DNA from: Zoogloea sp.
GTDB lineage: Bacteria; Pseudomonadota; Gammaproteobacteria; Burkholderiales; Rhodocyclaceae
Assembly (NCBI GenBank): GCA_016720685.1
Contig: JADKKC010000007.1
Span: forward strand, 15,426-79,425
Length of the DNA stretch: 64,000 nucleotides
Direction: 5' to 3'
Of this stretch, positions 5,200-48,056 are shown in pieces. Each line of letters opens with the position of its first letter. The stretch's first letter is position 1. The notes beneath the pieces were generated by a model, which was not told where the DNA came from, made no database searches, and worked only from the letters and a program-made list of their open reading frames with translations. A program made the translations under genes and the position numbers.

Positions 5200-6156
5200 T
5201 CAGTCGATTGCCGAAACCACCGCAGCCGCAATGCGGTTGCGCCCGGCTTGCTTGGCCCGATAGAGCGCATCGTCGGCGCGCTTGAGCAGGACGCTTGAAT
5301 CGGAGCCGCTGCGCAAAGGCGTTGTCGACGCCACGCCGATGCTGATCGTCACCACGTTGCCGCCTTTTGAATAGCTATGGGTGATGCTCAGCCCTTCCAC
5401 GGCTGAACGCATGGCCTCGGCAACCTGCAGGGCGCCGGTGATTTCGGTGTCCGGCAGGATGGCCGCGAACTCCTCGCCACCGTAGCGGGCCACCTGGTCG
5501 GCCGGGCGGCGCAGCGTGTCTTTCAGGGTGCGCGCCACGGCCTTGAGGCATTCATCGCCCACCTGGTGACCGTAGCTGTCATTGAACTGCTTGAAGCAAT
5601 CCACGTCACACAACAGCATCGACAGGGGCCGGCCCTGGCGGCCCAGGCGGCGCCACTCGCGCAACAGGGTTTCGTCGAACTGCCGGCGATTGGCAATGCC
5701 CGTCAGCCCGTCGAGGGAGGACAGGCGGATGAGTTCCTGGTTGGCATCGTCGAGCTTGCGGGTCAGCACCAGCAGCGAAAAACGCATCTGGGCGATGCGC
5801 TGCATGGCCCTCACCTTGGCAGCCAGCACGGTTCCGGAAACCGGCTTGATCAGGTAGTCGTCGCCACCCACGCTGATCGCCCTTTCGAGGTCGGCATCGC
5901 TGGTGCGGGCGGTCAGAAAGATGATCGGTGTCCATTCGCCAAACTGCTCCAGCTGACGAATGCGTCGGGCCACCTCAAAACCATCCATGCCGGGCATGAT
6001 GATGTCCAAAAGGATGAGGTCGGGGCGTTCCTGCTGGTAAAGCTCGATGCCCGTTTCACCGTTTCGGGCAACGATCGGCTCGATCCCGATCTTGCGCAGC
6101 TGATGAGACACCAGGGTGGCACTTGTCAGGGTGTCCTCTATCAGCAGTGCTTTCAC
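5200..6156 (-). CDS. response regulator receiver + GGDEF diguanylate cyclase
   Basis: N-terminal REC domain (LLDIIMPGMDG). C-terminal GGDEF domain with an intact RYGGEEF active site and an RxxD I-site (RPAD) 5 residues upstream. Confidence 0.9.
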   Translation of the reverse strand: MKALLIEDTLTSATLVSHQLRKIGIEPIVARNGETGIELYQQERPDLILLDIIMPGMDGFEVARRIRQLEQFGEWTPIIFLTARTSDADLERAISVGGDDYLIKPVSGTVLAAKVRAMQRIAQMRFSLLVLTRKLDDANQELIRLSSLDGLTGIANRRQFDETLLREWRRLGRQGRPLSMLLCDVDCFKQFNDSYGHQVGDECLKAVARTLKDTLRRPADQVARYGGEEFAAILPDTEITGALQVAEAMRSAVEGLSITHSYSKGGNVVTISIGVASTTPLRSGSDSSVLLKRADDALYRAKQAGRNRIAAAVVSAID

Positions 6157-11137: not shown

Positions 11138-11400
11138 GAAAAACTCCTCCGCGGGGTGTGGCTCCGAGCTACGAAACCAGACTGATTGGGCTATCACTCG
11201 TACTACGTGTTGTTCTTTTTTTATTTGTGCGCTGCTGCCTGCTTTGCTGCACGCCCCTGCCAGTGCAAAAAAGGGGCGCGCCCTTGAAGAAATAGTCCAC
11301 CGGAGACGGGCTCTCAAGTGTTTTGTCATCCCGACTTGACGTTTGTCACGACGCCCCGACTTCGCGCTGCGACAATCAGCAGCTTGCCAGACTCGATTGA

Positions 11401-11416
11401 CTGTATATAATTACAC
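11401..11416 (+). promoter_or_regulatory. LexA (SOS) box, one mismatch: CTGTATATAATTACAC
   Basis: Fits the CTGT-N8-ACAG pattern with the last base C. It lies 19 nt upstream of the lexA ATG, and an AAGGAG RBS lies between them. Confidence 0.75.
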
Positions 11417-11434
11417 AAGACTAAAGGAGTACTC

Positions 11435-12037
11435 ATGTCCGACCAGCTCACCGCCCGCCAGCAGGAAATCCTGCAACTCATCCGCGACACCGTCGAACAC
11501 GAAGGTCGTCCGCCCACCCGGGCCGAAATCTGTACTTTCTTCGGTTTTCGTTCCCCCAATGCAGCGGAAACCCACCTGCGCGCCCTCGCCGCCAAGGGCG
11601 TCATCACCCTTGAAGAAGGCCGGGCACGGGGCATCCGCCTGATGGAAGCCCTCGGCCTGCCGCTCATCGGCCGGGTTGCCGCCGGCAGCCCCATTCTTGC
11701 CGCCGAACACATGCAGGGCCGCTACCAGGTCGATCCTGGCCTGTTTTCTCCGCGGGCCGATTACCTGCTCAAGGTTCGCGGCCAAAGCATGCGCGACGCC
11801 GGCATCCTCGATGGCGACCTGCTCGCAGTGCATCGCACCACCGAAGTCCGCGACGGCCAGATCGTCGTCGCCCGCGTCGAGGACGACGTCACCGTCAAGC
11901 GCCTGTCGCGCAAGGGCCCCATCGTCGAACTGCTGCCCGCCAACCCCGACTTCAAGCCCATCGTGGTGGACACCCGCAATTCACCACTGGAAATCGAAGG
12001 CCTCGCTGTTGGCCTGATCCGCAGCGAAAGTCTTTGA
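11435..12037 (+). CDS. lexA: LexA repressor
   Basis: 200 aa with an N-terminal winged HTH. Ala-Gly cleavage site (VAAGSP), catalytic Ser (GQSM) and Lys (VKRL). Confidence 0.95.
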
Positions 12038-12060
12038 GGCCTGTCGAAGAGCACTACCGG

Positions 12061-12096
12061 CTCAAGACTCAACTCAAGGCTCAACTCAAGACTCTA
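12061..12096. repeat. 3 x 12-bp tandem repeat CTCAAG(A/G)CTCAA
   Basis: Read directly in the lexA-imuA spacer: ctcaagactcaa / ctcaaggctcaa / ctcaagactcta. Confidence 0.8.
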
Positions 12097-12134
12097 ATTT
12101 CCACCGCCCCCATTCTGTCCAACCGGGTCATCCC

Positions 12135-12905
12135 ATGGCAGCCCTGGCCACCCTTGCATCCCATGCCCCTTCCAGCCTCGATCACCTGATCTGGCGGGGT
12201 GACCGGCTGGCGACGGCCACTGCCCCCGGTCTGCCCACCGGCCACGCGCTACTCGATGCAGCCCTGCCCGGCGGCGGCTGGCCGGTCGGCGCACTCACCG
12301 AACTGCTCGTTCCCCATGCCGGCGTGGGCGAACTCGGCCTGCTCCTGCCGGTATTGGCCCGGACTCCTGCCGGGCGCTGGGCCGTCTGCATCGCGCCCCC
12401 CGGCCAGCCCTACGCACCAGCCCTGGCCGCCGCCGGCGTACCCCTCGAACGACTGCTCATGGTCCAGGCCGAAAGCCCTGCCCACGCCCGCTGGGCAGCC
12501 CGCCAGGCATTGAACTCGCACAGTTGCGGGGTCATCCTGCTATGGCTTGCCGACGCCGACATGGGCGCCCTGCGCCGCCTGCAACTGGCCGCAGAAGAAA
12601 GCGCCACCACCCTGATCCTGATTCGCCCCGCCAGTGCAGCCTCCCAGCCCTCACCGGCCGTGCTGCGCGTAGCCCTGGCTTCGTGCAGCGGCGGGCTTGA
12701 GCTGCGCATCCTGAAACGCCGCGGGCCGCAACTTGCCGGCCCACTCGGCATCGACCTGCCCTGGCCGGGTGGTGCGCCACGCCCCGGTCGCGCGACACAC
12801 CCGCCACGGCCGACCGCCGCTTCTCCCCAATCGTCCATCCATGCTCTGGTGCGCCCTCTACCTGCCCGACCTGGCCCTGCAAGTCTTCACGCGGGGGCGC
12901 AGTGA
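12135..12905 (+). CDS. imuA: translesion-synthesis cassette protein ImuA (RecA/SulA-like)
   Basis: LIWRGDRL...LPTGHALLDAALPGGGWPVGALTELL... matches the ImuA N-terminal signature. The gene sits between lexA and imuB. The 3' end overlaps imuB by 65 nt. Confidence 0.8.
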   Translation: MAALATLASHAPSSLDHLIWRGDRLATATAPGLPTGHALLDAALPGGGWPVGALTELLVPHAGVGELGLLLPVLARTPAGRWAVCIAPPGQPYAPALAAAGVPLERLLMVQAESPAHARWAARQALNSHSCGVILLWLADADMGALRRLQLAAEESATTLILIRPASAASQPSPAVLRVALASCSGGLELRILKRRGPQLAGPLGIDLPWPGGAPRPGRATHPPRPTAASPQSSIHALVRPLPARPGPASLHAGAQ

Positions 12906-14322
12906 CAGCCCGCCACTGGCCGTCCTCGGCCCCCGGCCGCGCCAACGGGTGGTGGCGGTGGATGCGGCGGCAATGGCGCGCGGCGTGGCGGCAGGGCACA
13001 GCCGCGCCGGTGCTCTGGCTTTAGCGCCTGATCTCTGCCTGATCGAGCGGGATCTCCGCCAGGAGCTCGCCACCCTCACCGATATCGCCAGCTGGGCGGG
13101 TTGTTTTACCCCCTCCATCAGCCTCGATCCACCTGACACCCTGCTGCTCGAAATCGAGGCCAGCCTGCGCCTTTTTGGCGGGCTGGCGCCCCTCTGCGAT
13201 GCCATCCGCGCCGGTCTCGACGAACTCGGCTTCACCGCGCAGCTGGCCGTCGCCCCCACGCCACTGGCAGCCCGCTGGCTGGCCCGCGGCGCCGCAGGCA
13301 GCTTGCTGCAAACCCCGGCCGGGCTGCCTGACGCCCTCGCCCCTTTGCCGCTCGGTCTCCTCGCTCACGAAAACACGGTGGGCGCCGACAGCCTCGAGCT
13401 GCTCGCCGGCATCGGAGCCCGCTGCATGGCAGACGTCCGCCGCCTGCCGCGCAGCGGGCTGGCCCGGCGTCAGGCCGGGGCCGTCATCACGCTGCTCGAC
13501 CGTGCCTATGGAGTGCTTCCCGACCCACGCCCCTGGTTCGTTCCGCCGGAGCACTACAGCAGCCGTCTTCCCCTGCCCGCGCCCAGCGACCAGACGGACA
13601 TCCTGCTGTTCGGCCTGCGCCGCCTCCTCGCCGGACTTTCCGGCTGGCTGGATGCCCGCCAGGCCGGTCTTGAACGCTTCACCCTGGTGCTGGAATTCGA
13701 GCGCCTCGGCAGCATCCACCGTGGCCATGAAGCGGAAAGCCGCATCGAGATCGTCCTCGGCGCCCTCTCCCAGGACATGGCTCGCTTCCAGCTGCTGACC
13801 CGCGAGCACCTGAGCCGCAAGGCGCTACCCGCGCCGGTGGAAGCCCTGCGCCTCGAGGCCGACGCCCCCCGGCCGATGGCGCCGCCGCGCACCGATTTCT
13901 TCGATGTCCAGGCCAGCGAAGACAACGATCCAGGCCTGCTCCTCGCCACCCTGCGCGCCCGCTTGGGCAACGCCGCCGTGCACTGCCTCGCCCCCCATCC
14001 GGATCACCGCCCCGAACACGCCTGGCGCCAGACCGATCCGCAAGCCTCCGCACTGCAGCCCGGCGCGGCGCTGCGCACTGCAGCCTTACCCAGCGCACCG
14101 CGCCCCCTGTGGCTTCTGCCCGAACCCCGCCCGATCGCCTGCCCCGCGCCGCAAAACATCCTCGCCGGCCCCGAGCGCATCGAATCCGGCTGGTGGGACG
14201 GCAACGACGGCGAGATCTGCCGCGACTACTTCGTCGCCAGACGCCAGGATCACAGCCTGGTATGGGTTTTTCGCGACTCGAAAGCGCCCCACGGCTGGTT
14301 TCTGCACGGCTATTTTTCATGA
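12841..14322 (+). CDS. imuB: Y-family polymerase-like protein ImuB
   Basis: Internal ATG at 12841 gives the canonical MLWCALYLPDLALQVF start. 493 aa, followed elsewhere in the window by dnaE2. Confidence 0.85.
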   Translation: MLWCALYLPDLALQVFTRGRSDSPPLAVLGPRPRQRVVAVDAAAMARGVAAGHSRAGALALAPDLCLIERDLRQELATLTDIASWAGCFTPSISLDPPDTLLLEIEASLRLFGGLAPLCDAIRAGLDELGFTAQLAVAPTPLAARWLARGAAGSLLQTPAGLPDALAPLPLGLLAHENTVGADSLELLAGIGARCMADVRRLPRSGLARRQAGAVITLLDRAYGVLPDPRPWFVPPEHYSSRLPLPAPSDQTDILLFGLRRLLAGLSGWLDARQAGLERFTLVLEFERLGSIHRGHEAESRIEIVLGALSQDMARFQLLTREHLSRKALPAPVEALRLEADAPRPMAPPRTDFFDVQASEDNDPGLLLATLRARLGNAAVHCLAPHPDHRPEHAWRQTDPQASALQPGAALRTAALPSAPRPLWLLPEPRPIACPAPQNILAGPERIESGWWDGNDGEICRDYFVARRQDHSLVWVFRDSKAPHGWFLHGYFS

Positions 14323-14347
14323 TGCCGCGCTACACTACGCCCCGCCC

Positions 14348-15718
14348 ATGAAGCCCCAGCCCCACGCCCAATCCCTCTCCCACCGCATCGTCGAACTCGC
14401 CTGGCCGGTACTCATCGCCCAGCTCTCGTCGATGACGCAAATGGTCAGCGACACGGTGCTCGCCGGCCGCTACGGCACGGAAGACCTGGCCGCGGTGGCC
14501 GTCGCCAGCGGCATCTACATTTCAATCGTGATGTTGATGGTCGGCATTCTGCAGGCAGTGGCACCCACCGTTGCCCACCACGTCGGCGCCGGCCGCACCA
14601 ATGAAATCGGCCCGTCCGTGCAGCAGGGTTTCTGGCTGGCCCTGGCCCTCACCGTTCCCGCCGTGCTCTTCATGCGCCAGCCCGACTGGCTGATGCAGCT
14701 CAGCGACATGAGCCCCGCCGTCGAAAACCGTGCCCGCGACTACCTCACCACCGTCGCCTGGGGCCTGCCGGCGGTACTGCTGTACCGCACCTTCTATGCC
14801 TTCACCAACGCCCTCGGGCGTACCCGCGTGCTGATGTTCATCAGCCTTGCGGCCACCGCGGTGCACATCCCCCTTTCGTGGGCCCTGATCAACGGCAAGC
14901 TCGGCTTCGCGCCTCTTGGCGGCACCGGCTGCGCGGTTTCCAGCGCGTGCATCGCCTGGCTGGCCTTTTTTGCCGCGCTGCTGCACGTAAGCCGAACACC
15001 GGCCTACGCGCCCTATCACCTGTTCTCCCGCTGGCAGCCTCCGCATTTCAAAACCCTTGCCGAATTGCTGCGCCTGGGTTTGCCGATGGGTTTTTCCAGC
15101 TTCGTCGAAATCACCGCCTTCACCCTCATCGCTCTGCTGGTGGCCCGGCTGGGCGCCGGCGTGGTGGCCGGACACCGCATCGTCGGCAATCTTTCGGCGC
15201 TGATCTACATGCTGCCGCTGGCCCTGGCCATCGCCACGCTGGTGCTGGTCGGGCAGGCCGTGGGCGGGCGCGACGGCCTGGGCGCCCGGCGTGCGGCCAA
15301 GGTCGGCATCGTGCTCGCCACGGGTTTATCGACGCTGGTCAGCATCGTCATGTGGTTTGCCCGCGATCCGGTCATGGCTGCCTACACTGCCGACCCGGCC
15401 GTGCGCGAGCTGGCCAGCTCGCTGGTGATCTACATCTGCCTGTACCAGTTCTTCGACGCCATCCAGACCGTTGCGGCCCACGCCCTGCGCGGCTACAAGA
15501 TCACCGTCGGGCCGATGCTCATCCACACCCTGTGCTTCTGGGGCATCGGCCTTGGCGGCGGCTACAGGCTGGCCTTTTCCGGAATGGGCGCGCTGCTGCC
15601 GCCGCAGGGCGTGGCCGGCTTCTGGCAGGCTGCGGTGCTCAGCAACATGGCCGCCGCCGCGCTGTTCGGCGGCTACCTGCACCTGGCCTCAAAAAAACAC
15701 GCGGCCAGGCCCGCCTGA
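14348..15718 (+). CDS. MATE family efflux transporter (DinF/NorM-like)
   Basis: ATG at 14348 (MKPQPHAQSLSHRIVELAWPVLIAQLSSM...). 12 predicted TM segments typical of MATE. It starts 26 nt after the imuB stop. The upstream part of ORF 13904..15718 is only an out-of-frame overlap with imuB. Confidence 0.85.
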   Translation: MKPQPHAQSLSHRIVELAWPVLIAQLSSMTQMVSDTVLAGRYGTEDLAAVAVASGIYISIVMLMVGILQAVAPTVAHHVGAGRTNEIGPSVQQGFWLALALTVPAVLFMRQPDWLMQLSDMSPAVENRARDYLTTVAWGLPAVLLYRTFYAFTNALGRTRVLMFISLAATAVHIPLSWALINGKLGFAPLGGTGCAVSSACIAWLAFFAALLHVSRTPAYAPYHLFSRWQPPHFKTLAELLRLGLPMGFSSFVEITAFTLIALLVARLGAGVVAGHRIVGNLSALIYMLPLALAIATLVLVGQAVGGRDGLGARRAAKVGIVLATGLSTLVSIVMWFARDPVMAAYTADPAVRELASSLVIYICLYQFFDAIQTVAAHALRGYKITVGPMLIHTLCFWGIGLGGGYRLAFSGMGALLPPQGVAGFWQAAVLSNMAAAALFGGYLHLASKKHAARPA

Positions 15719-15746
15719 CCAGCACAGCCCGCTCAAGGCACACGCA

Positions 15747-17528
15747 TCAGCCCTTCAGCCAGCCCTCGCGCAAGGCCAGTGCAGGCGCCGGGGCGTCCTC
15801 GGTGAAGCTCAGTCTGGCGGTGTCTTTTGGCGCGGCCTTGAGCTCCACGTCAAAGCGCATCAACTCGTCGCGGCGGAAGACGTGAATTTCCACGCTGTCG
15901 CCGGCAATGCGGCGGGCCAGCAGTTTGTCGAAATTGCCGGCGCCAAGCTTCAGCCCGTCCAGCGCCACCAGCACATCGCCCGCCGACAGCCCGGCCGCCT
16001 GGGCCGGGCCGCCGTCGTAAACGTTGGCCAGCTTCAGCACGTCGCCGTCGGCACTGGTGCGCACGCCCATTCCCGGCGCCTCGCCGGAGGCCTCCCACAC
16101 CAGGGCCATGCCGGCGCGTGCAAGCCCGCTTTCCAGCGGCAATTCGGCGGTTCCCTCGACAAGCTCGCGCAGCCAGCGGCCCACCTCCGCGCCGCCGATT
16201 TCGCTCGCCAGTTGAAAGATGCCGTCCTCCGCCACGCCAGCGCCACTGAGCCCGTGACGCTGCCACAGGGCGCGCATCAGATCGTCGAGGCTGGTGGCGC
16301 CCTTGCTCCCGGCCCGCAGGCGCAGGTCGAGCAGCAGCGCCACCAGCGCGCCCTTGGTGTAATAGCTGACGATGGCGTTGGGGCTGTTCTCGTCCTGGCG
16401 GTAATACTTGGTCCACGCCTCGAAGGATGATTCGGCCACGCTCTGCTTGTGGCGGCCGCTGCCCTTGTGAACCTGGCTGATGGTCTTGCCCAGCAGCGCC
16501 AGGTAATCCTTCTCGGTGATCCGGCCGGTGCGCAGCAGCATCAGGTCATCGTAATAGGACGTAAAGCCCTCGAAGGCCCACAGCAGCCGGGTGTAGTTTT
16601 CCTGCGTCAGGTCGTAGGGCACGAAGGCTGCGGGCTTGATGCGCTTGACGTTCCATGTATGGAAATACTCGTGGCTGCACAGGCCGAGAAACTGGCGATA
16701 GCCCTCCGACTGCGCCTCCATGCCGGCCCAGGGCAGGTCGGCGCGGCTGCACAACAACGCGGTGGACGCCCGGTGCTCCAGGCCACCGTAGCCATCGCCC
16801 ACCGCCATCACCAGAAACACGTAGCGATCCATCGGCGCCGGCTCGCCAAACAGGCGAATCTGCGCTTCGCAGACCGGCTTGAGGTCGTCCACCAGACGCG
16901 TCATGTCGCAATCGTGGCGACCGGTGATCGCCACCGCGTGGGGCACGCCGCAGGCATCGAACTCGGCCAGCGCAAAGTTGCCCATCTCAACCGGATGATC
17001 GATCAGCGCGTCGTAGTTTTGCGCCTGGTACAGCCCGAAACCATAGCGCTCCGCGGCGCCCTTCTCCCCCAGCGCCTCCGGCAGGCTCGTCGCCACGCGC
17101 CAGCCCGCGTCCTCCAGGCCTTCTGGCGGGCGGATGTCCACCCGCTGCGGCGCGTTTTCGTGGCCGTGGGCACACAGGAAAACGCTGGTTCCATTGAAGA
17201 AGCCGTGGGTCGGATCCAGGTGGGCGGTGCGCACCGACAAATCCCACGCGTACACCGTGTAGGTCAGGGTGAGCGGGCCTTCGATACCCGCCGGCAACTG
17301 CCAGCTGTGCTTGTCGCGCTTGGTCACCGGCACGGCCTTGCCACCGGCCCGGGCCGACAGGCTGACGATGTTCTTCGCAAACTCGCGAATCATGTAGCTG
17401 CCGGGAATCCACGCCGGCAGGCTGAACACCTGCCCGGCCGGATCCGGCCGGATCAAGCTCAGCGTCACTTCGAAAAGATGGGCGGCCGGCTGGGTGGCCT
17501 GGATGGTGTAGCGGACGGGAGCGGTCAT
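15747..17528 (-). CDS. M61 family glycyl aminopeptidase with C-terminal PDZ domain
   Basis: 593 aa with a zinc motif (HEYFHTWNVKR). The C-terminal PDZ-like region contains AQAAGLSAGDVLVALDG. Confidence 0.85.
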   Translation of the reverse strand: MTAPVRYTIQATQPAAHLFEVTLSLIRPDPAGQVFSLPAWIPGSYMIREFAKNIVSLSARAGGKAVPVTKRDKHSWQLPAGIEGPLTLTYTVYAWDLSVRTAHLDPTHGFFNGTSVFLCAHGHENAPQRVDIRPPEGLEDAGWRVATSLPEALGEKGAAERYGFGLYQAQNYDALIDHPVEMGNFALAEFDACGVPHAVAITGRHDCDMTRLVDDLKPVCEAQIRLFGEPAPMDRYVFLVMAVGDGYGGLEHRASTALLCSRADLPWAGMEAQSEGYRQFLGLCSHEYFHTWNVKRIKPAAFVPYDLTQENYTRLLWAFEGFTSYYDDLMLLRTGRITEKDYLALLGKTISQVHKGSGRHKQSVAESSFEAWTKYYRQDENSPNAIVSYYTKGALVALLLDLRLRAGSKGATSLDDLMRALWQRHGLSGAGVAEDGIFQLASEIGGAEVGRWLRELVEGTAELPLESGLARAGMALVWEASGEAPGMGVRTSADGDVLKLANVYDGGPAQAAGLSAGDVLVALDGLKLGAGNFDKLLARRIAGDSVEIHVFRRDELMRFDVELKAAPKDTARLSFTEDAPAPALALREGWLKG

Positions 17529-17648
17529 CAGGGCGGCGCGGGCAAATTGAAGAAGGCGCCGATTTTACTGCGCCGCCCAAAACACGGCCTGCCTCATTTT
17601 TAGGCAACAATAAAAAAGCCTTATGGCTTAGGGCCTTGTCGGCCAATC

Positions 17649-17960
17649 TCACAGTTTTTCCACACCTTTGCCCACCTGCGATGGGGAAAACTCGGACATT
17701 TCAACAGCTCAAAAAACCTGCACCATTTTGAGGCATCAATATTAATCTCTTTAATTTCATAAGCCTGAGAGCTTTCCACACAGCTTATCCACAGCTTATC
17801 CCCGGTTTTGTGTGCATAGACAAAAACTATTCAAAACCTCAAAACAACAACGTTGCTCTATTTTTAGGCAGCCGGAAAAAACCCTTTTGTTTCCGCGGCA
17901 TGACAGTGCCCCTCACAGTTTATCCACAGCCTTGCCCACCCTGAATGTGGGTTATCCAGG
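17649..17960 (+). promoter_or_regulatory. cluster of same-orientation DnaA boxes in an AT-rich intergenic region
   Basis: Perfect TTATCCACA at 17785..17793 and 17920..17928. Near-matches are TTTTCCACA 17656..17664, CTTTCCACA 17772..17780, TTATCCCCG 17796..17804 and TTATCCAGG 17952..17960. Two ~30-nt repeat modules (17649..17678 and 17913..17943) each carry one box. Confidence 0.6.
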
Positions 17961-17969
17961 GCCTGTGAA

Positions 17970-18896
17970 TCATGGAATGAAAGGCAGTTCTATCAGGTCG
18001 CTGCGCGCCACGCCGGCGGTCATCTTGCGGCACAGGGCGACGAACTCGCGCATGCCGGCCGTCACGTACTTGCGTCGGTGGGTCACAAACTGAAACTGGC
18101 GCCGCAGATCCAGATCCGGCGTGTGCACCTCGGCCAGGCTGCCCCGCCGAAAAGCCTCGCGCAGGGCAAGCCGCGAGATGCAGCCAATGCCAAGGCCGCT
18201 CTCCACCGCGCGCTTGATCGCCTCGGTGTGCTCCAGCTCGAGGCGTACCTTGAGATTGCCAGTGAAGTGGCGCAGGGCCTGATCGAAGGTTTCCCGCGTG
18301 CCTGAGCCCTGCTCGCGCAGGATCCAGTCCTGGCCGGCCAGCTCAAGCATGCTCACCGGCCTGCCGTGGGCCAGCGGGTGAGCCGGCGCGCAAAACACCA
18401 CCAGTTCGTCCTCGACCCACGGCTCGACGACCAGGTCCGGGTGACGGCAACTGCCTTCGATCAGCCCCAGGTCCAGCTCGTAATGAGTGAGCTGCTGGAC
18501 GATGGTGGCGGAATTGTGAACCGAAAGCCTCACTTGCGCGCTCGGATGAAGGCGCAGGAAATCGGCCGCAATCAGGGTGGCCAGATAGTTGCCCACGGTA
18601 AGGGTGGCGCCGATTTTCAGCGGGCCGAAGTCGGTCTTTCTGGCCAGCAGGGTCTCGATTTCACTGGCGTGCTCGATCAACTGCACCGCGTGGGGCTGCA
18701 AGACCTGCCCTAGTTCATTCAGGCGCAACGTCTTGCCGATGCGGTCGAAAAGCTGGGTGTCGAACTGGCGTTCGAGTTCGCCCAACGCCGTGCTGGTGGC
18801 CGACTGCGACAGGGCCAGCTCATCGGCGGCCCGCGAAACGCTCTCATGACGGGCCACGGCCACAAAGATTTCAAGCTGACGAAGGGTGTATTTCAT
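17970..18896 (-). CDS. LysR family transcriptional regulator (FinR-like, divergent from fpr)
   Basis: MKYTLRQLEIFVAVARHESVSRAADELALSQSATS HTH domain followed by a LysR substrate-binding domain. It is divergent from a ferredoxin-NADP reductase gene. Confidence 0.9.
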   Translation of the reverse strand: MKYTLRQLEIFVAVARHESVSRAADELALSQSATSTALGELERQFDTQLFDRIGKTLRLNELGQVLQPHAVQLIEHASEIETLLARKTDFGPLKIGATLTVGNYLATLIAADFLRLHPSAQVRLSVHNSATIVQQLTHYELDLGLIEGSCRHPDLVVEPWVEDELVVFCAPAHPLAHGRPVSMLELAGQDWILREQGSGTRETFDQALRHFTGNLKVRLELEHTEAIKRAVESGLGIGCISRLALREAFRRGSLAEVHTPDLDLRRQFQFVTHRRKYVTAGMREFVALCRKMTAGVARSDLIELPFIP

Positions 18897-24886: not shown

Positions 24887-24944
24887 CATTGATACGACAA
24901 ACCAGCTTACGGCAAGGCGACGATGTAGGTTGCGCCGAGGTAAG

Positions 24945-27191
24945 TCACGCGCTTTGACTTGGCCTGAGCGTAACCGTGGAGTTGTCGGAATACACAAACG
25001 GCGTTCCGTTGTAACCCCAGGTCCATTCGTTGAGTTTGGTTTGCTGGTGGATCAGGTCCATGCGCACCGCCGAGGTCTTGTCCAGAGCGTACCTGCCGAA
25101 CAGCTTCAGCGTGAATTGCTGGAAGGTGACGTCGGGAAGGCCGCCAAGACGGGACAAGAGCGTGCTGTTGGCCGTCGACCCACCTCTTTGCTTGTACTCG
25201 TCCCTGTCATCGATGAGCAGCAGATCGCCACCGACCTGGAGGCGACTCGTGGGCTTGCCGATCACACCGAACCCGTAACTGTCGCTGAGATTGCGCAGCG
25301 CGGCCAGGTAACCCGTGCTGTGATCCACGTGCATGGTCTGATCACCGCGAGACCAGTAGCCCGTGAGCTTCCAGTCTTCAGACAAGGCATAGGCGGCATC
25401 CACACCATAGAAGCCCATGTAGCTGCTTCTCAGGCCCTTGGTGCCCGGAGAGCTGAAATTATCCTGCCCCCACTCGGCCATGAACTGCAGCGACAGCTGG
25501 TCGGTGGCAGCCCAGTCGGCACTCATCTTGATCTTGTCCCGCTGCCGGTCAGTCATCGAAGAGGGGAAGATGCTATTGACCCCATAGATGCCGTTGTTGA
25601 AGGTGGCACATGCGGTGACCGAGGTCAGGGATGGATCTCCCACGATGACACCCCGGCCTGCGTCAGACAAGCCCCCCAGGCCGGTACAACTCAGGGACAG
25701 CGGCTTGAGCCAGGCCGATCCGCTGCGATGGCTGCTGGAATAGCCGATCGCACCGGTCAGGGTTTCGCTCATTGAACGGCGCAACTCCATTCTGTAGCCG
25801 GTTTCCTCACTCTTCTGGCGCAGGCCACTCAAACCGGCAACGGAGTTTGTGCTGACAAAAGTGCCACGATCAAGCGACTCGTAATTGAACCCCAGCGTCG
25901 CCCGATAGCCGTCAGGCAGCTGATAAGTGCCTTCAAGCTTGCCGTTCAGGCGCTTTGGTGAATAGTTGCCGTTGGTGAACGCTGTAGTCGCCGGATTGCC
26001 TTCGACGTTGTAGTAGGCGATAGGCGTCTTGTCGTTGCGGTCTTCGTAGCGGACATTGGCCAGCAGCGACAGCTTGGAGATCGGCCGCGACGTCAGGCCA
26101 AGCTGATACAGGCTGGTGTCGACCTTCGCGCCAAGATCGCTGCGGCCTCCGGGAGCCCCGCCGAACACGGAGAAATTGTCGGTCTGCGCGGCGTGGGTGT
26201 AGGCGTACTTGAAGTTGGCCTTGGTGGTCGGTGTGAACGCGTAATTGCCCGTCAGGTAAAACTGGTGCGCCTGACTATCCGGCGGCAGCGCAATGGGATT
26301 TTGCAACATGCCCCGCAAACCGGCGCCCAGCGCAGGCCCGTTGCCGGGGAGTCCCATCTGGTTTCCCAGCGGATTACTGAGCTCACCGTTGATGCTTGCT
26401 GCCATCGACTGATACTGGTTGCTGTAGAACGAGCCATAGTAGCCCCCCGACAGCATCAGCTTGTCGCTCGCGTAGTTGAGCTTCGCGTCGAACTGCTGGG
26501 TGCTCGAGTTGATCGGCTCGGGCAGCATGAGCTGCGCCCATTGGGTTACGCCGGTAGTACACAAGGGGGACGGCGCAGAGCCCGAGGGGCAGGCCATGCC
26601 GTTGCCGAACATCCGGGCACCGTTCTTGTCCTCGTTCCGGAAGCTGGCCTCGAACTGCAGCGAGGAACTCAGCCATTTTTCCAGGGCGATGGTGGTGTTC
26701 TTGCGCTTCAGCTCGAGGTTTACGTCAGAACCGCTACCTGCCGTAGCCAGCCGGGAGACCACCGGCGCGGTGCTGCCTGCGCCGACAAGGCTGGTGTTGA
26801 TGGTGCGCGGATCACGCCGGATCATCTCGTCGTATTCGAAGGAATACTTCCAGTCGCCCTGCTTTTGCTGGCCGAAGCGAATTTCCCGGGTGTCCAGCCC
26901 GAGGTTGCGCCCCTGGAGGGTGGTCCAGGTGCCGGTGGCGTCGTCGCGCTTGATGACGTCGAGGTCGAGCAGAAGATAGGCGTCCTGGCGGCGCAGGCCG
27001 TTGTATTGGCCAAAAATGCTGCGCTCGTTCTCGGCACCCGTCACCCCGGCAGCGCCGATGGAAACACTGCTGTCGGGACGGATCAGGGCGGCGATCTCGT
27101 CATCGGCCGCATGGGCCGAACCAAAGGCGGCAAGGAGGGCCAGCGCAACAATCTTGAGGCTGAAACCCGGGCGTGTTTGCAAGGTTCTCAT
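24945..27191 (-). CDS. mtoB: MtrB/PioB/MtoB family decahaem-associated outer-membrane beta-barrel protein
   Basis: 748 aa with a signal peptide (AAFGSAHA/AD). The sequence shows alternating beta-strand character, is rich in Y/G/N/S/T, and ends in an aromatic residue region. It lies immediately downstream of a decahaem cytochrome gene. Confidence 0.85.
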   Translation of the reverse strand: MRTLQTRPGFSLKIVALALLAAFGSAHAADDEIAALIRPDSSVSIGAAGVTGAENERSIFGQYNGLRRQDAYLLLDLDVIKRDDATGTWTTLQGRNLGLDTREIRFGQQKQGDWKYSFEYDEMIRRDPRTINTSLVGAGSTAPVVSRLATAGSGSDVNLELKRKNTTIALEKWLSSSLQFEASFRNEDKNGARMFGNGMACPSGSAPSPLCTTGVTQWAQLMLPEPINSSTQQFDAKLNYASDKLMLSGGYYGSFYSNQYQSMAASINGELSNPLGNQMGLPGNGPALGAGLRGMLQNPIALPPDSQAHQFYLTGNYAFTPTTKANFKYAYTHAAQTDNFSVFGGAPGGRSDLGAKVDTSLYQLGLTSRPISKLSLLANVRYEDRNDKTPIAYYNVEGNPATTAFTNGNYSPKRLNGKLEGTYQLPDGYRATLGFNYESLDRGTFVSTNSVAGLSGLRQKSEETGYRMELRRSMSETLTGAIGYSSSHRSGSAWLKPLSLSCTGLGGLSDAGRGVIVGDPSLTSVTACATFNNGIYGVNSIFPSSMTDRQRDKIKMSADWAATDQLSLQFMAEWGQDNFSSPGTKGLRSSYMGFYGVDAAYALSEDWKLTGYWSRGDQTMHVDHSTGYLAALRNLSDSYGFGVIGKPTSRLQVGGDLLLIDDRDEYKQRGGSTANSTLLSRLGGLPDVTFQQFTLKLFGRYALDKTSAVRMDLIHQQTKLNEWTWGYNGTPFVYSDNSTVTLRPSQSA

Positions 27192-27210
27192 GATGATTTC
27201 CCCTCGTCGA

Positions 27211-28203
27211 TCAACGCAGGTTGAACTGCGGAGTCGGATTCGTTGCGCTTGGGTTGTTGCTGCCGTGCACCTGGGTGTGGCAATTCACGCAACCCCGCGC
27301 CTGGGTGTAGTTGATGCCGGACTTGCCGCTCGAGTTGATGGTCGGCTGGGTCGGCAACTGGCCCCGCAACTGGGCGATCTGGCCACCATGCGGCGTGTGG
27401 CACTGATGGCACAGGAAGGGCGGCCGGGCTTTGAGCAGGCTTTCGGCAACGGTGCCGTGGGGGTTGTGGCAATTGCCGCAATCCTCGTTGACCGGCTCGT
27501 GGCTGTGTACGAAGGGGCCGCGCTTTTCCATGTGGCAGGTGTAGCAGGTCTCGACGACGCTATCGCGCTTGACCAGCTTGGGACCGATGGAGCCATGGGA
27601 GTTGTGGCAATCCGAGCAGGCAACCTTGCCTTCCATCACCGGGTGGTGGGAGGGCTTCATGACCTGGGCGCGCTGTTCCTTGTGGCAGGTGAAGCACACT
27701 TCGGGCTGGGTGCGCTTGTCGGCAACCTTGTCCTTGGCGGTGTGCAACTGGTGGCAGGAAGTGCAGGCCACGTCGGCACGCTGGTGGGCGCTGCCTTCCC
27801 AGTGCGAACGCTTGGCATCCTTCTTGTGGCAGGAGATGCAGGATTCGTTGCGGGCCTCGACCGGCGTTTTGGAGTTCTTGCCAAAACTGCGGTCGGTGGC
27901 CGGGCGCTCTTTGAGCTTGGCCGGATTGTTGGTGTGCAGGTCGCTGTCGCCGTGGCAATTGGTGCAGCTGGGCGTACGCCCGTCGGCCACGGTGCCATGC
28001 TTGGTCTTGCCGATGTGCAGGAGCTTGGGCTCGTCCGCCTCATCGTGGCAGGTGGTGCACTTGGCGTCGCCCTTGAGGACCAGATCCTTGGCGGGCGGCT
28101 TGGCGCCTGGCGAGGATGGGGCATCGGCAGCCACGGCGGCCGTGGTGCCGACTAGCGCCCCGAGCAAGGCGCACGAGGCCAACAACTGTCGCAGGAATTT
28201 CAT
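27211..28203 (-). CDS. mtoA: periplasmic decahaem c-type cytochrome, MtrA/PioA/MtoA (DmsE) family
   Basis: 330 aa with a signal peptide. There are exactly ten CXXCH motifs: CTTCH, CTNCH, CISCH, CTSCH, CFTCH, CSDCH, CYTCH, CGNCH, CHQCH and CVNCH. Confidence 0.9.
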   Translation of the reverse strand: MKFLRQLLASCALLGALVGTTAAVAADAPSSPGAKPPAKDLVLKGDAKCTTCHDEADEPKLLHIGKTKHGTVADGRTPSCTNCHGDSDLHTNNPAKLKERPATDRSFGKNSKTPVEARNESCISCHKKDAKRSHWEGSAHQRADVACTSCHQLHTAKDKVADKRTQPEVCFTCHKEQRAQVMKPSHHPVMEGKVACSDCHNSHGSIGPKLVKRDSVVETCYTCHMEKRGPFVHSHEPVNEDCGNCHNPHGTVAESLLKARPPFLCHQCHTPHGGQIAQLRGQLPTQPTINSSGKSGINYTQARGCVNCHTQVHGSNNPSATNPTPQFNLR

Positions 28204-28274
28204 TTTTTATCTCCCTTTTACTGACATCGCTTGTCGAAGCGCCCTGCAAGTCGGGCGCTCCGTTACTGAACGGC

Positions 28275-28625
28275 TTACTTGCCGAGGGACAGGATCCAGT
28301 CGGTCAGATTCTTGATCGCGGCCTTGTCCTTGGTCTTGATGACCTTGTGCTCCTCTTCCTTGCCGTCATCGAACTTCACCATTTCACCCGACGTGAGGTG
28401 ATGGAGCAGTTTGGCTTCGGCATCGGCCTTGCCCTTGAGCGACTTGGAAATCTCGGTCAGGGACTTGGCTTCCTTCTTCTTGTCCACGGCGTGGCACTTG
28501 AGGCAGCCTTCCTTCTTGGCCAGGGCCTGCGCTTCATCGGCGTCGAAGGCCAGCGCATTGGCGGACAGCAGCAGCCCTGAGGCACAGAGGCCGGAAATCA
28601 GGGGGGTAATCACGCGGAACTTCAT
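28275..28625 (-). CDS. secreted monohaem class I c-type cytochrome (MtoD-like position)
   Basis: 116 aa with a signal peptide and a single CLKCH motif. A Met candidate for the distal ligand is present (SGEMVKF). Confidence 0.75.
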   Translation of the reverse strand: MKFRVITPLISGLCASGLLLSANALAFDADEAQALAKKEGCLKCHAVDKKKEAKSLTEISKSLKGKADAEAKLLHHLTSGEMVKFDDGKEEEHKVIKTKDKAAIKNLTDWILSLGK

Positions 28626-28678
28626 GTGGGGTTTCTCCTTGAGGACAACGTACGACTTATTGGTTTGGGGAACGTGAA

Positions 28679-29292
28679 TCAGTGCTCGTACCAGCCGGTG
28701 AGCATCATCTTGAACAGGCTGGAAACCTTGGGCCCGACCGTGCCCAGGTAGATGTGGCTCACCATGAACAACAGGATCACCGCCGCGCCGATGTAATGCA
28801 GCATCGCGATGGGCAGGAGCCCGTCGAGCCCGAAGAGCTTGTCGGGGGCGAACTGGGGATAGAGGAAGACCAGCCCGGTCAGGATCACCACCGGAAGCAC
28901 CATGTACATGATCGACCAGTAAGTGAGAGCCTGCAGGACGTTGAAATTGACCTCGGGGTCGGCGGATAGGGCTCGGGCTCGCCCTTGAAGATGCCGCTGC
29001 CGTAGTACTTCATCTGCGTCAGGCAACGCTTGATGATGCCGGGCGGCTTCGGGATGTACTGCCACCAGTTGCCGGTGACGATGTTGCCGGTCATGAAGAC
29101 CACCCACAGCCCGGCGAGGATGACGCCGGCCACGTTATGGATGCGCGCCGCCAGCGAAAACTCCACCAGCGGAAGGTTCGGATCGGAAAAGTGCAGGCTG
29201 ATGCCGGTGATCGACAGGGCGATGATCGCCAGGGCATTGCCCCAGTGCCACAGCCTGATCCACAGGTGAAGGATGCAAACGCGATTAGTCAT
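28679..29292 (-). pseudogene. dihaem b-type cytochrome (HydC/FdnI/PhsC, cytochrome b561-like family), 1-nt frameshift
   Basis: The N-terminal half is ORF 28885..29292 (MTNRVCILHLWIRLWHWGNAL...RIHNVAG...). The C-terminal half is ORF 28679..29107 (...NFNVLQALTYW...MLHYIGA...VSHIYLG). The frames switch at about 28955..28965. There are four conserved His residues on four TM helices. Confidence 0.75.
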
Positions 29293-30255
29293 GGTTTTTA
29301 CTCCGGCGCAGACGGGTCATGATGACGCGCACGAGGCCGTGGCCGATCACGCCCGCCAGCGTGGCGACAAACAGGCCGATCAGGATCATGTCGAGGGTGG
29401 GGCTGCGGGTAGCACCCACCACATAGGAGTTGCTCAGGATCACGCTGTTGAGGAAGCCGTACTTGTTCTGCTCCTCGGTGGCCAGATGGCGATACAAGCG
29501 CGCATTGAGCGAGCTGTTGGCGCTGTGGCAGGTGGCGCACTTCTTCTCGGCCTTGTCCTTGTTCTGGATCTCGTGGGAGAGGGAGAGCTTGTCTTCGGTG
29601 GGCGTGTGGCACTCGATGCAGCGCACGGCCTTCCAGTGCAGGCGGGTGTTGGGCAGCCAGTCATGGATGTCGTCGATGGGCGGCCGCTTTTTCTTGTCCG
29701 GCGCCATCTTCGCAAAGGCCAGATCCGAATCGTGGCAATCGAGACAGATCTTGTTGTCCTGGGCCACGATCTTGTGCGGATCGCGCAACTTGGCGGCCAG
29801 GGTCATGGAGTGCGCGTCGTGGCAGGTGACGCAGGTGAAGGTTTCGCTGAGGTTCTCGGCGTGCACCGACTTGTCGAACTGGCGTTCGATGCGCATCGCC
29901 TTGCGGGCGTGGCAGTCCTGGCATTCACTCAGGCTGTCCTTGGCGTCGGCCTCGTGGGGGTGTTCGTCGTAGCCGTCGCCGTGGCACTTGGTACAGGCCA
30001 TCTGGCCGTGGTCGGACGCCGTGTAGGTGTCCAGATGAACCAGGTGGCTACGCAGCTTCTTGAGATCCAGCCCTTCCTTCGGGGGCTTCTTGAGCCCTGC
30101 TTCCGAGTGGCAGGCCAGGCATTTTCCGTTGGCTGCCTGGATTTTTACGAGTTCTTCGGGGACGGTGGGGGTTCGTCGGCGAAGGCCGGCGGCGCGGCCA
30201 TCAGGGCCAGCAGTGCCAACGCTCCACGCAGTTTTCTACTTATCTTGCTAAACAC
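29285..30255 (-). pseudogene. heptahaem c-type cytochrome with signal peptide and C-terminal membrane anchor, 1-nt frameshift after the signal peptide
   Basis: A GAGGAG RBS and GTG at 30255 give VFSKISRKLRGALALLALMAAPPAFADEPPPSP. The frame then shifts at the G-run 30158..30161 into ...EELVKIQAANGKCLACH...MACTKCH.... The 7 CXXCH motifs are CLACH, CTKCH, CQDCH, CVTCH, CLDCH, CIECH and CATCH. A TM helix (LDMILIGLFVATLAGVIGHGLV) is near the C-terminus. The stop overlaps the cytochrome b start by 8 nt. Confidence 0.75.
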
Positions 30256-47760: not shown

Positions 47761-47810
47761 GCTGAATCCTCAGTTGCTGCTGACAGGCTGGCGATTTACT
47801 GGTTGAAAAC

Positions 47811-47837
47811 GCAAAAAAGGCGAACTCTCGTTCGCCT
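47811..47837 (-). terminator. rho-independent terminator (minus strand) downstream of the tRNA genes
   Basis: On the minus strand: AGGCGAAC-GAGA-GTTCGCCT followed by TTTTTTGCGTTTT. Confidence 0.75.
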
Positions 47838-48025: not shown

Positions 48026-48056
48026 AACAAAAAAGCCACCGAAGTGGCTTTTTTTC
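48026..48056. terminator. bidirectional hairpin terminator
   Basis: AACAAAAAAGCCAC-CGAA-GTGGCTTTTTTT. A-tract and T-tract flank a 6-7 bp stem. Confidence 0.7.

What the first reader, a model, noticed from the sequence alone, without database searches (positions are those of the whole stretch)
17590..17965. Dense same-orientation DnaA-box array with AT-rich tracts and two 30-nt repeat modules: candidate oriC or DnaA-titration/reactivation site away from dnaA
This ~380-bp intergenic region is much more AT-rich than its surroundings. It carries two perfect TTATCCACA boxes (17785, 17920). At least four one- or two-mismatch boxes are also present (17656, 17772, 17796, 17952). All are on the same strand. 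Two further degenerate boxes lie on the opposite strand (TGTGCATAG at ~17810 and TGTGGGTTA at ~17946). Two modules of TCACAGTTT(T/A)TCCACA..TTGCCCACC(C)TG (17649..17678 and 17913..17943) bracket the array. AT-rich stretches (CAATATTAATCTCTTTAATTTCATAA at ~17737; AAAAACTATTCAAAACCTCAAAACAACAA at ~17822) could act as unwinding elements. No dnaA, dnaN, rpmH or gidA gene is nearby. If functional, this is either an origin uncoupled from dnaA (as in enterobacteria) or a datA/DARS-like regulatory locus, which is barely described outside E. coli. It could also merely be DnaA control of the flanking M61 peptidase promoter.
Basis: partly seen in the sequence, partly recalled or inferred. Interest (0 to 1): 0.65.

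Follow-up and report, generated by a model that had tools for sequence, protein, structure and literature searches.

The report
Triple DARS-like DnaA-box module, not origin
The gap between a LysR-type regulator gene and an M61 peptidase gene in this Zoogloea-like genome holds three tandem copies of a conserved DNA module that binds the replication initiator DnaA; its sites are laid out like the E. coli "DARS" elements that recharge DnaA, it does not look like a replication origin, and its activity is untested.

Summary
The 441-bp gap (17529-17969, 47% GC against about 65% around it) holds 10 DnaA-box-like 9-mers, two of them perfect. That is far more than chance gives.

The boxes form three tandem units of 129 and 135 bp. 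Each unit has one box on the M61-sense strand facing three boxes on the other strand. An A/T-centred palindrome, TGCCTMAAAATRNNGCA, starts 84 nt after box I.

In units A and B the gaps are I-5 bp-II-3 bp-III. I read the same orientation and gaps in E. coli DARS1 and DARS2.

Twelve Zoogloea gaps (69% mean identity) align without a single indel, and the invariant columns are concentrated in the boxes and palindromes. The same roughly 105-nt unit occurs upstream of M61 in Aromatoleum-like genomes (1-2 copies). It also occurs between a hybrid histidine kinase gene and an RluA-type gene elsewhere.

An origin is unlikely. GC skew does not switch, the AT-rich tract is not conserved, and no dnaA, dnaN or gidA lies in the 64 kb.

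Best reading: a non-origin DnaA control element of DARS type.

The parts
17529..17969 (.). Whole intergenic region between the M61 peptidase start (17528, - strand) and the LysR-type regulator stop (17970, - strand); 441 bp, 47% GC
17854..17954 (-). Unit B (next to LysR): box I, 5 bp, box II, 3 bp, box III, 2 bp, box III', spacer, palindrome
17946..17954 (-). Unit B box I, TAACCCACA (2 mismatches), opposed to boxes II-III
17932..17940 (+). Unit B box II, TTGCCCACC (3 mismatches to the E. coli consensus); 7 of 9 columns invariant in 12 Zoogloea sequences
17920..17928 (+). Unit B box III, perfect TTATCCACA
17909..17917 (+). Unit B box III', CCCCTCACA, weak site 2 bp from box III
17854..17870 (-). 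Unit B palindrome TGCCTAAAAATAGAGCA (Fis-type by consensus only)
17719..17819 (-). Unit M (middle): box I, 6 bp, box II, 2 bp, box III, then III' and palindrome; same distance from box I to box III (26 nt) as units A and B
17811..17819 (-). Unit M box I, CTATGCACA; overlaps a conserved inverted repeat GAATAG-N7-CTATTC (17814-17832, one mismatch in the window)
17796..17804 (+). Unit M box II, TTATCCCCG
17785..17793 (+). Unit M box III, perfect TTATCCACA
17772..17782 (+). Unit M box III', read as CTTTCCACA (17772-17780) or TTCCACACA (17774-17782)
17719..17735 (-). Unit M palindrome TGCCTCAAAATGGTGCA
17590..17690 (-). Unit A (next to M61): box I, 5 bp, box II, 3 bp, box III, 2 bp, box III', spacer, palindrome
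17682..17690 (-).
17668..17676 (+). Unit A box II, TTGCCCACC
17656..17664 (+). Unit A box III, TTTTCCACA (1 mismatch)
17645..17653 (+). Unit A box III', AATCTCACA
17590..17606 (-). Unit A palindrome TGCCTAAAAATGAGGCA
17952..17972 (.). Extra box pair at the LysR stop: TTATCCAGG (+, 17952-17960) and TGATTCACA (-, 17964-17972)
17562..17567 (-). TAAAAT, the -10-like element of M61 (TAGAAT in relatives). It stays with M61 in L003 and in genomes that lack the module. Not part of the module.
15747..17528 (-). M61 glycyl aminopeptidase with PDZ domain (flanking gene)
17970..18896 (-). LysR-type transcription regulator (flanking gene)

Best explanation
The gap is a non-origin, non-coding platform for the replication initiator DnaA. 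It is built from three tandem copies (129 and 135 bp apart) of a conserved unit of about 105 nt.

**Layout of a unit.** One DnaA box (I) faces an array of three boxes in the opposite orientation: a weak but invariant box II, a strong box III and a weak box III'. An A/T-centred palindrome starts 84 nt after the start of box I. In units A and B the order, orientation and gaps (I-5 bp-II-3 bp-III) equal those of the E. coli DnaA-reactivating sequences DARS1 and DARS2.

**Proposed mechanism (inferred).**
1. DnaA binds the strong box III.
2. It recruits further DnaA molecules head-to-tail onto boxes II and III'.
3. It recruits one molecule onto the opposed box I.
4. The head-to-head contact between the molecules on boxes I and II loosens bound ADP. 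The nucleotide-free DnaA leaves, rebinds ATP and is active again for initiation.
5. The palindrome probably binds a DNA-bending protein of the Fis or IHF type that shapes or times the complex.
6. Three copies raise capacity or allow cooperation between units.

**Shown:** the sites, their geometry, their conservation and rigid spacing, occurrence in other contexts, and the absence of origin signatures.

**Inferred:** DnaA binding itself, nucleotide release, and the identity of the palindrome-binding protein.
For: - **DnaA-box content beyond chance**.
- **Same geometry as DARS.** I read TTATCCACT-5-TGTGGATAA-3-TGTGTATTA in MG1655 DARS1 and TTATTCACC-5-TGTGGATAG-3-TGTGAAGAA in DARS2. PMC6868365 states that boxes I and II are opposed with a 5-bp space and that II and III point the same way. 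Window unit B is TAACCCACA-5-GGTGGGCAA-3-TGTGGATAA, and unit A is TTTTCCCCA-5-GGTGGGCAA-3-TGTGGAAAA.
- **The geometry is rare.** With at most 6 summed mismatches it occurs twice in the window, both times here. It occurs 0 times in 917 kb of other betaproteobacterial loci.
- **Fixed spacing across contexts.** 37 units from several gene contexts align without gaps over about 105 nt.
- **Box I varies the way a DnaA box would.** It differs between contexts yet stays DnaA-box-like: TTATCCCCA, TTGCCCACA, TTGTCCACA, TTATCCACC.
- **Box III varies only at position 3** (A, T or G), the known tolerant position of the DnaA box consensus.
- **The box II variant is used in a real origin.** TGTGGGCAA sits in phase inside a canonical dnaA-dnaN origin array of another organism (L128).
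- **Footprint in Zoogloea.** 12 Zoogloea gaps have 0 gap columns. 111 of 159 columns in boxes and palindromes are invariant, against 50 of 217 elsewhere.
- **Independent of the M61 promoter**.
- **Not an origin**.
Against: - No experiment supports it, and DnaA binding is inferred from sequence alone.
- In E. coli the consensus box is box II. Here box II is the weakest to the E. coli consensus (3 mismatches) and box III is the strongest.
- The middle unit has gaps of 6 and 2 bp, not 5 and 3.
- There is no detectable sequence homology to E. coli DARS1 or DARS2 beyond the boxes.
- Geometry cannot tell reactivation from inactivation or titration.
- The unit is upstream of M61 in two lineages, so a transcriptional role cannot be excluded.
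Confidence: 0.45

Rival explanations
1. datA-like or titration element. The array binds many DnaA molecules and lowers initiation potential. It would do so by promoting hydrolysis of DnaA-bound ATP with a bending protein at the palindromes, or simply by soaking up DnaA, as the DnaA-box clusters of Bacillus and Streptomyces are reported to do.
For: - Three strong same-orientation boxes lie 129 and 135 bp apart, with a bend-type palindrome roughly midway between them. This recalls E. coli datA, where I read boxes 2 and 3 in the same orientation 162 bp apart with the IHF site between them.
- There are about 12 sites in 400 bp.
- PMC5742627 cites datA-analogous clusters in B. subtilis and S. coelicolor.
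Against: - The conserved unit works as a single copy in Aromatoleum-like genomes, so cooperation between units is not essential.
- The opposed box I at exactly 5 bp is the DARS hallmark, not the datA one.
- No conserved IHF consensus was found.
Confidence: 0.2
2. DnaA acts here only as a transcription factor. The boxes couple M61 peptidase expression, or termination and read-through from the LysR gene, to DnaA level, with no feedback on DnaA itself.
For: - The unit lies upstream of M61 in both Zoogloea and Aromatoleum-like genomes, although the gene on the other side differs.
- Unit A ends 22 nt from the -10-like TAAAAT in the window.
- E. coli DARS1 also lies in the uvrB upstream region.
Against: - In L003 a gene is inserted between the array and M61, and the array is kept next to the LysR 3' end, between convergent genes.
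- The distance from array to -10 varies from 22 to 43 nt, while the array has no indels.
- The same unit lies between a hybrid histidine kinase and an RluA-type gene, in the opposite orientation to the downstream gene.
- Three units of 12 sites are far more than an operator needs.
Confidence: 0.12
3. The motifs are operators of another regulator that binds direct repeats in 11-12-bp phase, for example a response regulator of the OmpR/PhoB/CreB type. The likeness to DnaA boxes would then be coincidental.
For: - TGTGG cores recur at 11-12-bp phase.
- CTCAC-N6-TCCAC resembles the cre tag TTCAC-N6-TTCAC (from my own knowledge, not tested).
- In one context the unit follows a hybrid histidine kinase gene.
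Against: - The window has two perfect 9-mers.
- All nine positions of box III are conserved, with variation only at the DnaA-tolerant position 3.
- Box I stays DnaA-box-like while differing between contexts.
- No DNA-binding response regulator gene lies next to any copy; the neighbours are a pseudouridine synthase, M61 and LysR-type genes.
Confidence: 0.08
4. Chromosomal replication origin (oriC) uncoupled from dnaA, or the origin of a secondary replicon.
For: - A dense box array with weak sites in 11-12-bp phase, as in origin DnaA-oligomerisation regions.
- A local AT-rich tract in the window.
Against: - GC skew is negative on both sides.
- Strand-corrected third-position skew is -0.10, -0.11 and -0.10 in the three segments.
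- The AT-rich tract 17737-17765 is GC-rich in relative L001 and only partly A/T-rich in the others.
- No origin-linked genes lie in the 64 kb.
- Single GC-rich copies of the unit occur in short gaps elsewhere.
- There is no similarity to plasmids.
- A genuine dnaA-dnaN origin array fetched by chance (L128) looks different: many same-orientation boxes and no opposed trio.
Confidence: 0.04

Closest known systems
E. coli DARS1 (bioD-uvrB gap) and DARS2 (rppH/ygdT-mutH gap), the DnaA-reactivating sequences
   Same: - Non-coding.
- Three DnaA boxes, with box I opposed to II and III.
- A 5-bp gap between I and II and a 3-bp gap between II and III.
- A further weak box after box III.
- Rigid spacing to flanking protein-site-like motifs.
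- Located in a gene's upstream region away from origin genes.
   Different: - The strongest box is III, not II.
- Box II is the high-GC variant TTGCCCACC.
- There are three tandem units, and the middle one has gaps of 6 and 2 bp.
- The palindrome starts 84 nt from the start of box I, which does not match the DARS2 distances to its IHF and Fis sites.
- No sequence homology or shared neighbours.
- The published record limits the DARS2 core to gamma-proteobacteria related to E. coli (PMC4245941).
- Activity is untested.
E. coli datA (DnaA-ATP hydrolysis locus)
   Same: A cluster of DnaA boxes in a non-coding region, with same-orientation strong boxes 130-160 bp apart and an A/T-rich bend-type site between them.
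   Different: - In datA the essential boxes flank one IHF site, and its convergent pair (boxes 3 and 4) has a 3-bp gap.
- Here the unit is an opposed trio with a 5-bp gap.
- The unit also occurs singly.
DnaA-box clusters of Bacillus subtilis and Streptomyces coelicolor (titration sites cited in PMC5742627)
   Same: Non-origin clusters of DnaA boxes thought to modulate initiation.
   Different: Those are described as titrating clusters without the opposed-trio geometry (from my own knowledge, not tested here).
oriC DnaA-oligomerisation regions, for example the dnaA-dnaN array in L128
   Same: Weak and strong boxes in 11-12-bp phase, and use of the TTGCCCACA variant.
   Different: No skew switch, no conserved unwinding element and no origin-linked genes.

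Membership tests
DARS (DnaA-reactivating sequence) | Core of three DnaA boxes, with box I opposite in orientation to boxes II and III | tested here: met
   All three units have one box on the M61-sense strand facing 2-3 boxes on the other strand. The definition comes from PMC6868365.
DARS (DnaA-reactivating sequence) | 5-bp space between boxes I and II, and 3 bp between II and III (as read in MG1655 DARS1 and DARS2) | tested here: met
   Units A and B, and the Aromatoleum-type and kinase/RluA-type units, have gaps of 5 and 3 bp. The middle unit has 6 and 2 bp, with the same total distance from I to III.
DARS (DnaA-reactivating sequence) | Box II carries the full consensus and nucleates assembly | tested here: not met
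   Box II is TTGCCCACC (3 mismatches). Box III is the consensus or near-consensus box.
DARS (DnaA-reactivating sequence) | Sequence homology or shared genomic position with E. coli DARS1 or DARS2 | tested here: not met
   An nhmmer profile of 37 units finds nothing in the DARS1 and DARS2 regions. The neighbours are LysR and M61, not bioD/uvrB or rppH/mutH.
DARS (DnaA-reactivating sequence) | Promotes release of ADP from DnaA and raises ATP-DnaA and initiation in vivo | not testable with these tools
   Needs a biochemical ADP-dissociation assay and flow cytometry or marker-frequency analysis.
DARS2 subtype | IHF and Fis sites at fixed, functionally required distances from the core | tested here: inconclusive
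   A palindrome with 4-5 of the 6 key Fis-consensus positions starts 84 nt after the start of box I in every unit. No conserved IHF consensus was found, and the distances differ from DARS2.
datA | Essential same-orientation boxes flanking a single IHF site; stimulates DnaA-ATP hydrolysis | tested here: inconclusive
   The box IIIs of successive units are 129 and 135 bp apart with a palindrome between them, against 162 bp in datA. But single-unit versions exist, and hydrolysis is not testable.
oriC | Lies at the switch of replication-associated GC skew | tested here: not met
   Skew is negative on both sides. Strand-corrected GC3 skew is about -0.10 in all three segments.
oriC | Conserved AT-rich unwinding element next to the boxes | tested here: not met
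   The window's AT-rich tract 17737-17765 is GC-rich in L001 and only partly A/T-rich in other relatives. It is among the least conserved parts of the gap.
oriC | Linkage to dnaA, dnaN, rpmH or gidA, or autonomous replication of the fragment | tested here: not met
   tblastn with the E. coli proteins finds none of these genes in the window. Autonomous replication is not testable here.
Known RNA families or structured RNA | Match to an Rfam model, or a fold more stable than shuffles | tested here: not met
   No Rfam hit in the gap. Fold z-score is -1.5.

The most novel reading that the evidence does not exclude
The unit is one lineage form of an old, modular DnaA nucleotide-state control element of Beta- and Gammaproteobacteria: an opposed DnaA-box trio plus a bending-protein site at a fixed distance. 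E. coli DARS1 and DARS2 would then be only the enterobacterial versions. In Zoogloea the unit has been amplified to three in-register copies that act together as a high-capacity recharge hub, or as a switch that combines datA-like and DARS-like action depending on the bending protein. If so, DARS-type reactivation is a general feature of replication control, not an E. coli speciality.
Probability: 0.3. Interest if true: 0.8.

Novelty: new variant of a known kind. Interest (0 to 1): 0.6.

Why it matters
How bacteria other than E. coli bring DnaA back to its active ATP form before each round of replication is an open question. Published work limits the DARS core to gamma-proteobacteria related to E. 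coli (PMC4245941).

This locus gives a sharply defined unit of about 105 bp, with conserved box geometry and rigid spacing, in Rhodocyclales. These are wastewater floc formers and aromatic-compound degraders. The unit can be tested directly with standard DnaA binding and ADP-release assays, and by deletion in culturable Zoogloea or Aromatoleum strains.

It also guards against annotating this dense DnaA-box cluster as an origin.

Tried and rejected
- **Whole-genome placement.** No genome-wide skew, no dnaA locus and no second-copy search in the window's own genome were possible.
- **Exact-protein look-ups.** M61 is not on record. The LysR look-up found only metagenome or MAG contigs of at most 33 kb, so the locus could not be placed on a chromosome.
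- **Earlier notes of this scan.** None exist for this genome or for look-alike stretches.
- **Literature.** Searches for a Zoogloea or Rhodocyclales origin found nothing usable.
- **RNA evidence.** Three wastewater metatranscriptome runs laid no reads. This says nothing either way.
- **Rfam, tRNA and RNA fold.** Nothing lies in the gap, so the sRNA or riboswitch reading was dropped. The two terminator-like hairpins are not conserved as hairpins in Aromatoleum-type units.
- **Plasmid origin.** There is no similarity to 72,556 plasmids.
- **Homology to E. coli DARS by profile.** There is no hit, so the likeness is one of geometry only.
- **IHF consensus WATCARNNNNTTR.** Read by eye, only a partial, non-conserved match appears in the middle unit of some relatives. 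I did not count it.
- **Response-regulator operator reading.** I considered it because of the 11-12-bp phased TGTGG cores and the kinase neighbour. No DNA-binding regulator gene lies beside any copy.
Full report
**What is there**

The flagged stretch is the whole 441-bp gap (17529-17969). It lies between the start of an M61 glycyl-aminopeptidase gene with a PDZ domain (15747-17528, - strand) and the stop of a LysR-type regulator gene (17970-18896, - strand). Its GC content is 47%, against about 65% around it.

Two more lie on the opposite strand, TTTTCCCCA at 17682 and TGATTCACA at 17964.

The cluster is well beyond chance:
- The window has 10 hits with at most one mismatch, against 3.9 expected; no shuffle of 100 reaches 10.
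- 10 of the window's 95 hits with at most two mismatches fall in this one stretch. The next densest stretch has 5.

**Anatomy**

The gap is a tandem array of three units, not a loose cluster.
- An 81-nt direct repeat recurs after 264 nt.
- The 17-mer TGCCTMAAAATRNNGCA occurs exactly three times in the 64 kb, at 17590, 17719 and 17854.
- That is the same 129 and 135 nt period as the three best boxes at 17656, 17785 and 17920.

Read on the M61-sense (-) strand, each unit contains, in order:
1. Box I in 'forward' orientation.
2. A short gap.
3. Three 'reverse' 9-mers: box II (GGTGGGCAA, or CGGGGATAA in the middle unit), box III (TGTGGATAA or TGTGGAAAA, the strongest) and box III' (TGTGAGG-like).
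4. A spacer of about 38-40 nt.
5. The palindrome.

In units A (17590-17690) and B (17854-17954) the gaps are 5, 3 and 2 bp. In the middle unit they are 6, 2 and 2 bp (4 bp if III' is read as CTTTCCACA). The distance from box I to box III (26 nt) and from box I to the palindrome (84 nt) is the same in all three units.

**Relatives**

The M61 protein places the window with Zoogloea. The best loci are 78-83% identical. The exact strain is seen only on short metagenome and MAG contigs.

Conservation within Zoogloea:
- Twelve Zoogloea gaps with 69% mean pairwise identity (62% minimum) align with no gap column between 17585 and 17960.
- 111 of 159 columns in boxes and palindromes are invariant, against 50 of 217 elsewhere (Fisher P about 6e-20).
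- I defined the palindrome partly from its conservation, so that part of the test is somewhat circular. The boxes were defined by match to the DnaA consensus.
- Box III varies only at its third position (A, T or G), the position the DnaA-box consensus TTWTNCACA tolerates.

The unit also occurs outside Zoogloea:
- A profile of the Zoogloea gap finds the same unit upstream of M61 in Aromatoleum, one copy in L006 and two in L009. The gene on the other side differs there. It does not find the unit in Thauera, Azoarcus or Accumulibacter loci.
- A pattern scan of metagenome contigs recovers it in further M61-linked contigs.
- The scan also recovers it in a second conserved context, between the 3' end of a CHASE8 hybrid histidine kinase gene and an RluA-type pseudouridine synthase gene. 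The kinase is 65-90% identical among those contigs.
- One more copy lies between a LysR-type gene and arsD (L130).

Thirty-seven units from these contexts align without gaps over about 105 nt. Across contexts box I changes sequence but stays DnaA-box-like (TTATCCCCA, TTGCCCACA, TTGTCCACA, TTATCCACC, TTTTCCCCA). That is what selection for DnaA binding predicts.

**Is it an origin? Unlikely.**
- GC skew is negative on both sides.
- When the coding-strand effect is averaged out, third-position skew is about -0.10 left of the site, -0.11 in 18-40 kb and -0.10 in 40-64 kb. The same strand therefore appears to be the lagging one throughout.
- The AT-rich tract that might serve as an unwinding element (17737-17765) is GC-rich in L001 and poorly conserved overall.
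- No homologue of DnaA, DnaN, GyrB, RecF, RpmH, MnmG or RsmG lies in the window.
- A single, GC-rich copy of the unit fills a gap of about 215 bp in Aromatoleum.
- There is no similarity to plasmids.
- By luck the pattern scan also fetched a canonical rpmH-dnaA-[array]-dnaN-recF-gyrB region of another organism (L094/L128). Its origin array is a run of many same-orientation boxes with no opposed trio. It does contain TGTGGGCAA in phase, which supports reading box II as a genuine DnaA-box variant.

**Is it just the M61 operator? Weakened.**
- In Zoogloea L003 an extra gene is inserted between the array and M61. The array stays intact beside the LysR 3' end, between convergent genes, and the -10-like TAGAAT stays with M61.
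- That -10 element is found upstream of M61 even in genomes without the unit.
- The distance from unit A's palindrome to the -10 varies from 22 to 43 nt among Zoogloea, while the array itself tolerates no indel.
- In the kinase/RluA context the unit has the opposite orientation relative to the downstream gene.

**What it most resembles**

PMC6868365 defines the DARS core as DnaA boxes I-III. Boxes I and II are opposed and 5 bp apart, and boxes II and III point the same way. An optional box III' may follow.

I read the E. coli MG1655 sequences directly:
- DARS1 is TTATCCACT-5-TGTGGATAA-3-TGTGTATTA.
- The DARS2 core is TTATTCACC-5-TGTGGATAG-3-TGTGAAGAA.

Units A and B, and the Aromatoleum-type and kinase/RluA-type units, have the same convergent orientation and the same 5-bp and 3-bp gaps. 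Scanning for this geometry with at most six summed mismatches finds two sites in the window, both here. It finds none in 917 kb (both strands) of other betaproteobacterial loci.

Differences from E. coli DARS:
- The consensus box is III, not II.
- The middle unit has gaps of 6 and 2 bp.
- A profile of the units finds nothing in the E. coli DARS regions, so the likeness is architectural and is not demonstrable homology.
- The palindrome's distance from the core differs from the IHF and Fis sites of DARS2.

The palindrome matches 4-5 of the six key positions of the Fis consensus quoted in PMC11724364. That is only a consensus match.

E. coli datA, which I also read, has same-orientation boxes 162 bp apart around an IHF site. 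The 129 and 135 bp spacing of the box IIIs, with a palindrome between them, faintly recalls this. A datA-like or titrating role therefore remains the main rival.

**Mechanism proposed**

Shown:
- A rigidly spaced, conserved, multi-site DnaA-box module with DARS core geometry.
- It is separable from the adjacent promoter.
- It lacks origin signatures.

Inferred:
1. DnaA fills box III first.
2. It extends head-to-tail onto boxes II and III'.
3. A DnaA molecule on the opposed box I makes the head-to-head contact with the one on box II that, in E. coli, drives ADP release. This yields nucleotide-free DnaA that rebinds ATP.
4. A bending protein at the palindrome shapes or times the complex.
5. Three copies multiply capacity.

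I put about 0.85 on 'non-origin DnaA-binding control element' and about 0.45 on the DARS-type reactivation mechanism specifically.

**Relation to the literature and to earlier notes**

PMC4245941 states that the DARS2 core is conserved among gamma-proteobacteria related to E. coli. [quoted passage not shown] No DARS has been characterised in Rhodocyclales as far as these searches show.

I had already derived the geometry when I found that earlier, unchecked AI notes of this scan report DARS-like trios at other loci in Beta- and Gammaproteobacteria. One of these lies next to truC. They agree with this reading and with the RluA-family context seen here, but they are not independent evidence.

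**What led nowhere**
- Metatranscriptome reads.
- Rfam, tRNA search and RNA folding.
- The plasmid search.
- Literature on Zoogloea origins.
- Exact-protein look-up of M61.

**Verdict**

This is a new variant of a known kind, it is untested experimentally, and the tests are simple.

Noticed in passing
L128 2961-6022 (also L094): The pattern scan fetched a canonical rpmH-dnaA-[box array]-dnaN-recF-gyrB region of another, unnamed organism. Its dnaA-dnaN gap holds a run of same-orientation boxes in 10-12-bp phase (TGTGGACAT, TGTGGGCAA, TGTGGATAA twice, TGTGGATAG twice, TGTGGACAA). It served as a positive control for what an origin array looks like.
   Followed up: partly
L088 3451-3487 (NC_000913.3 about 2,969,450-2,969,486): The E. 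coli rppH/ygdT-mutH gap holds a second trio with DARS geometry (TTATCCCAG-5-TGTGGATAA-3-GGTGTAAGA). It lies about 315 bp from the DARS2 core trio at L088 3136-3170. I did not check whether it lies within the published 455-bp DARS2 fragment or has been studied.
   Followed up: no
L139 4923-7704; L127, L100, L104, L133/L112: The same DnaA-box unit has a second conserved home: after a TonB-dependent receptor / YfiR-like / CHASE8 hybrid histidine kinase operon and before an RluA-type pseudouridine synthase gene. The organism or organisms are unknown.
   Followed up: partly
L003 5130-5898: In one Zoogloea MAG a gene with no Pfam match (ORF as listed: 5130-6008, 292 aa, minus strand) is inserted between the array and M61.
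   Followed up: partly
window 17814-17832: An inverted repeat GAATAG-N7-CTATTC (GCATAG in the window) overlaps box I of the middle unit and is conserved in most Zoogloea. It may be a site for a further protein.
   Followed up: no
window 24900-30100: A cluster on the - strand encodes an MtrB/PioB-type outer-membrane porin, multihaem cytochromes c and a cytochrome b. It is a candidate extracellular electron-transfer module, and it coincides with the only stretch of positive GC skew in the window.
   Followed up: no
window 11400-15720: LexA, a 256-aa protein and an ImuB-like (IMS family) protein lie next to a MatE transporter, downstream of M61. This is an SOS mutagenesis cassette apparently without an adjacent dnaE2.
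   Followed up: no
window 47000-57000: GC falls to 52-59% beside tRNA-Asp and tRNA-Val (48086-48264). This may be a genomic island.
   Followed up: no
window 2850-3300: The second-densest stretch of DnaA-box-like 9-mers (5 with at most 2 mismatches, including TTATCCACC at 2962 and TTACCCACA at 3271) lies largely inside a predicted ORF (2436-3326, - strand). It is probably chance.
   Followed up: no
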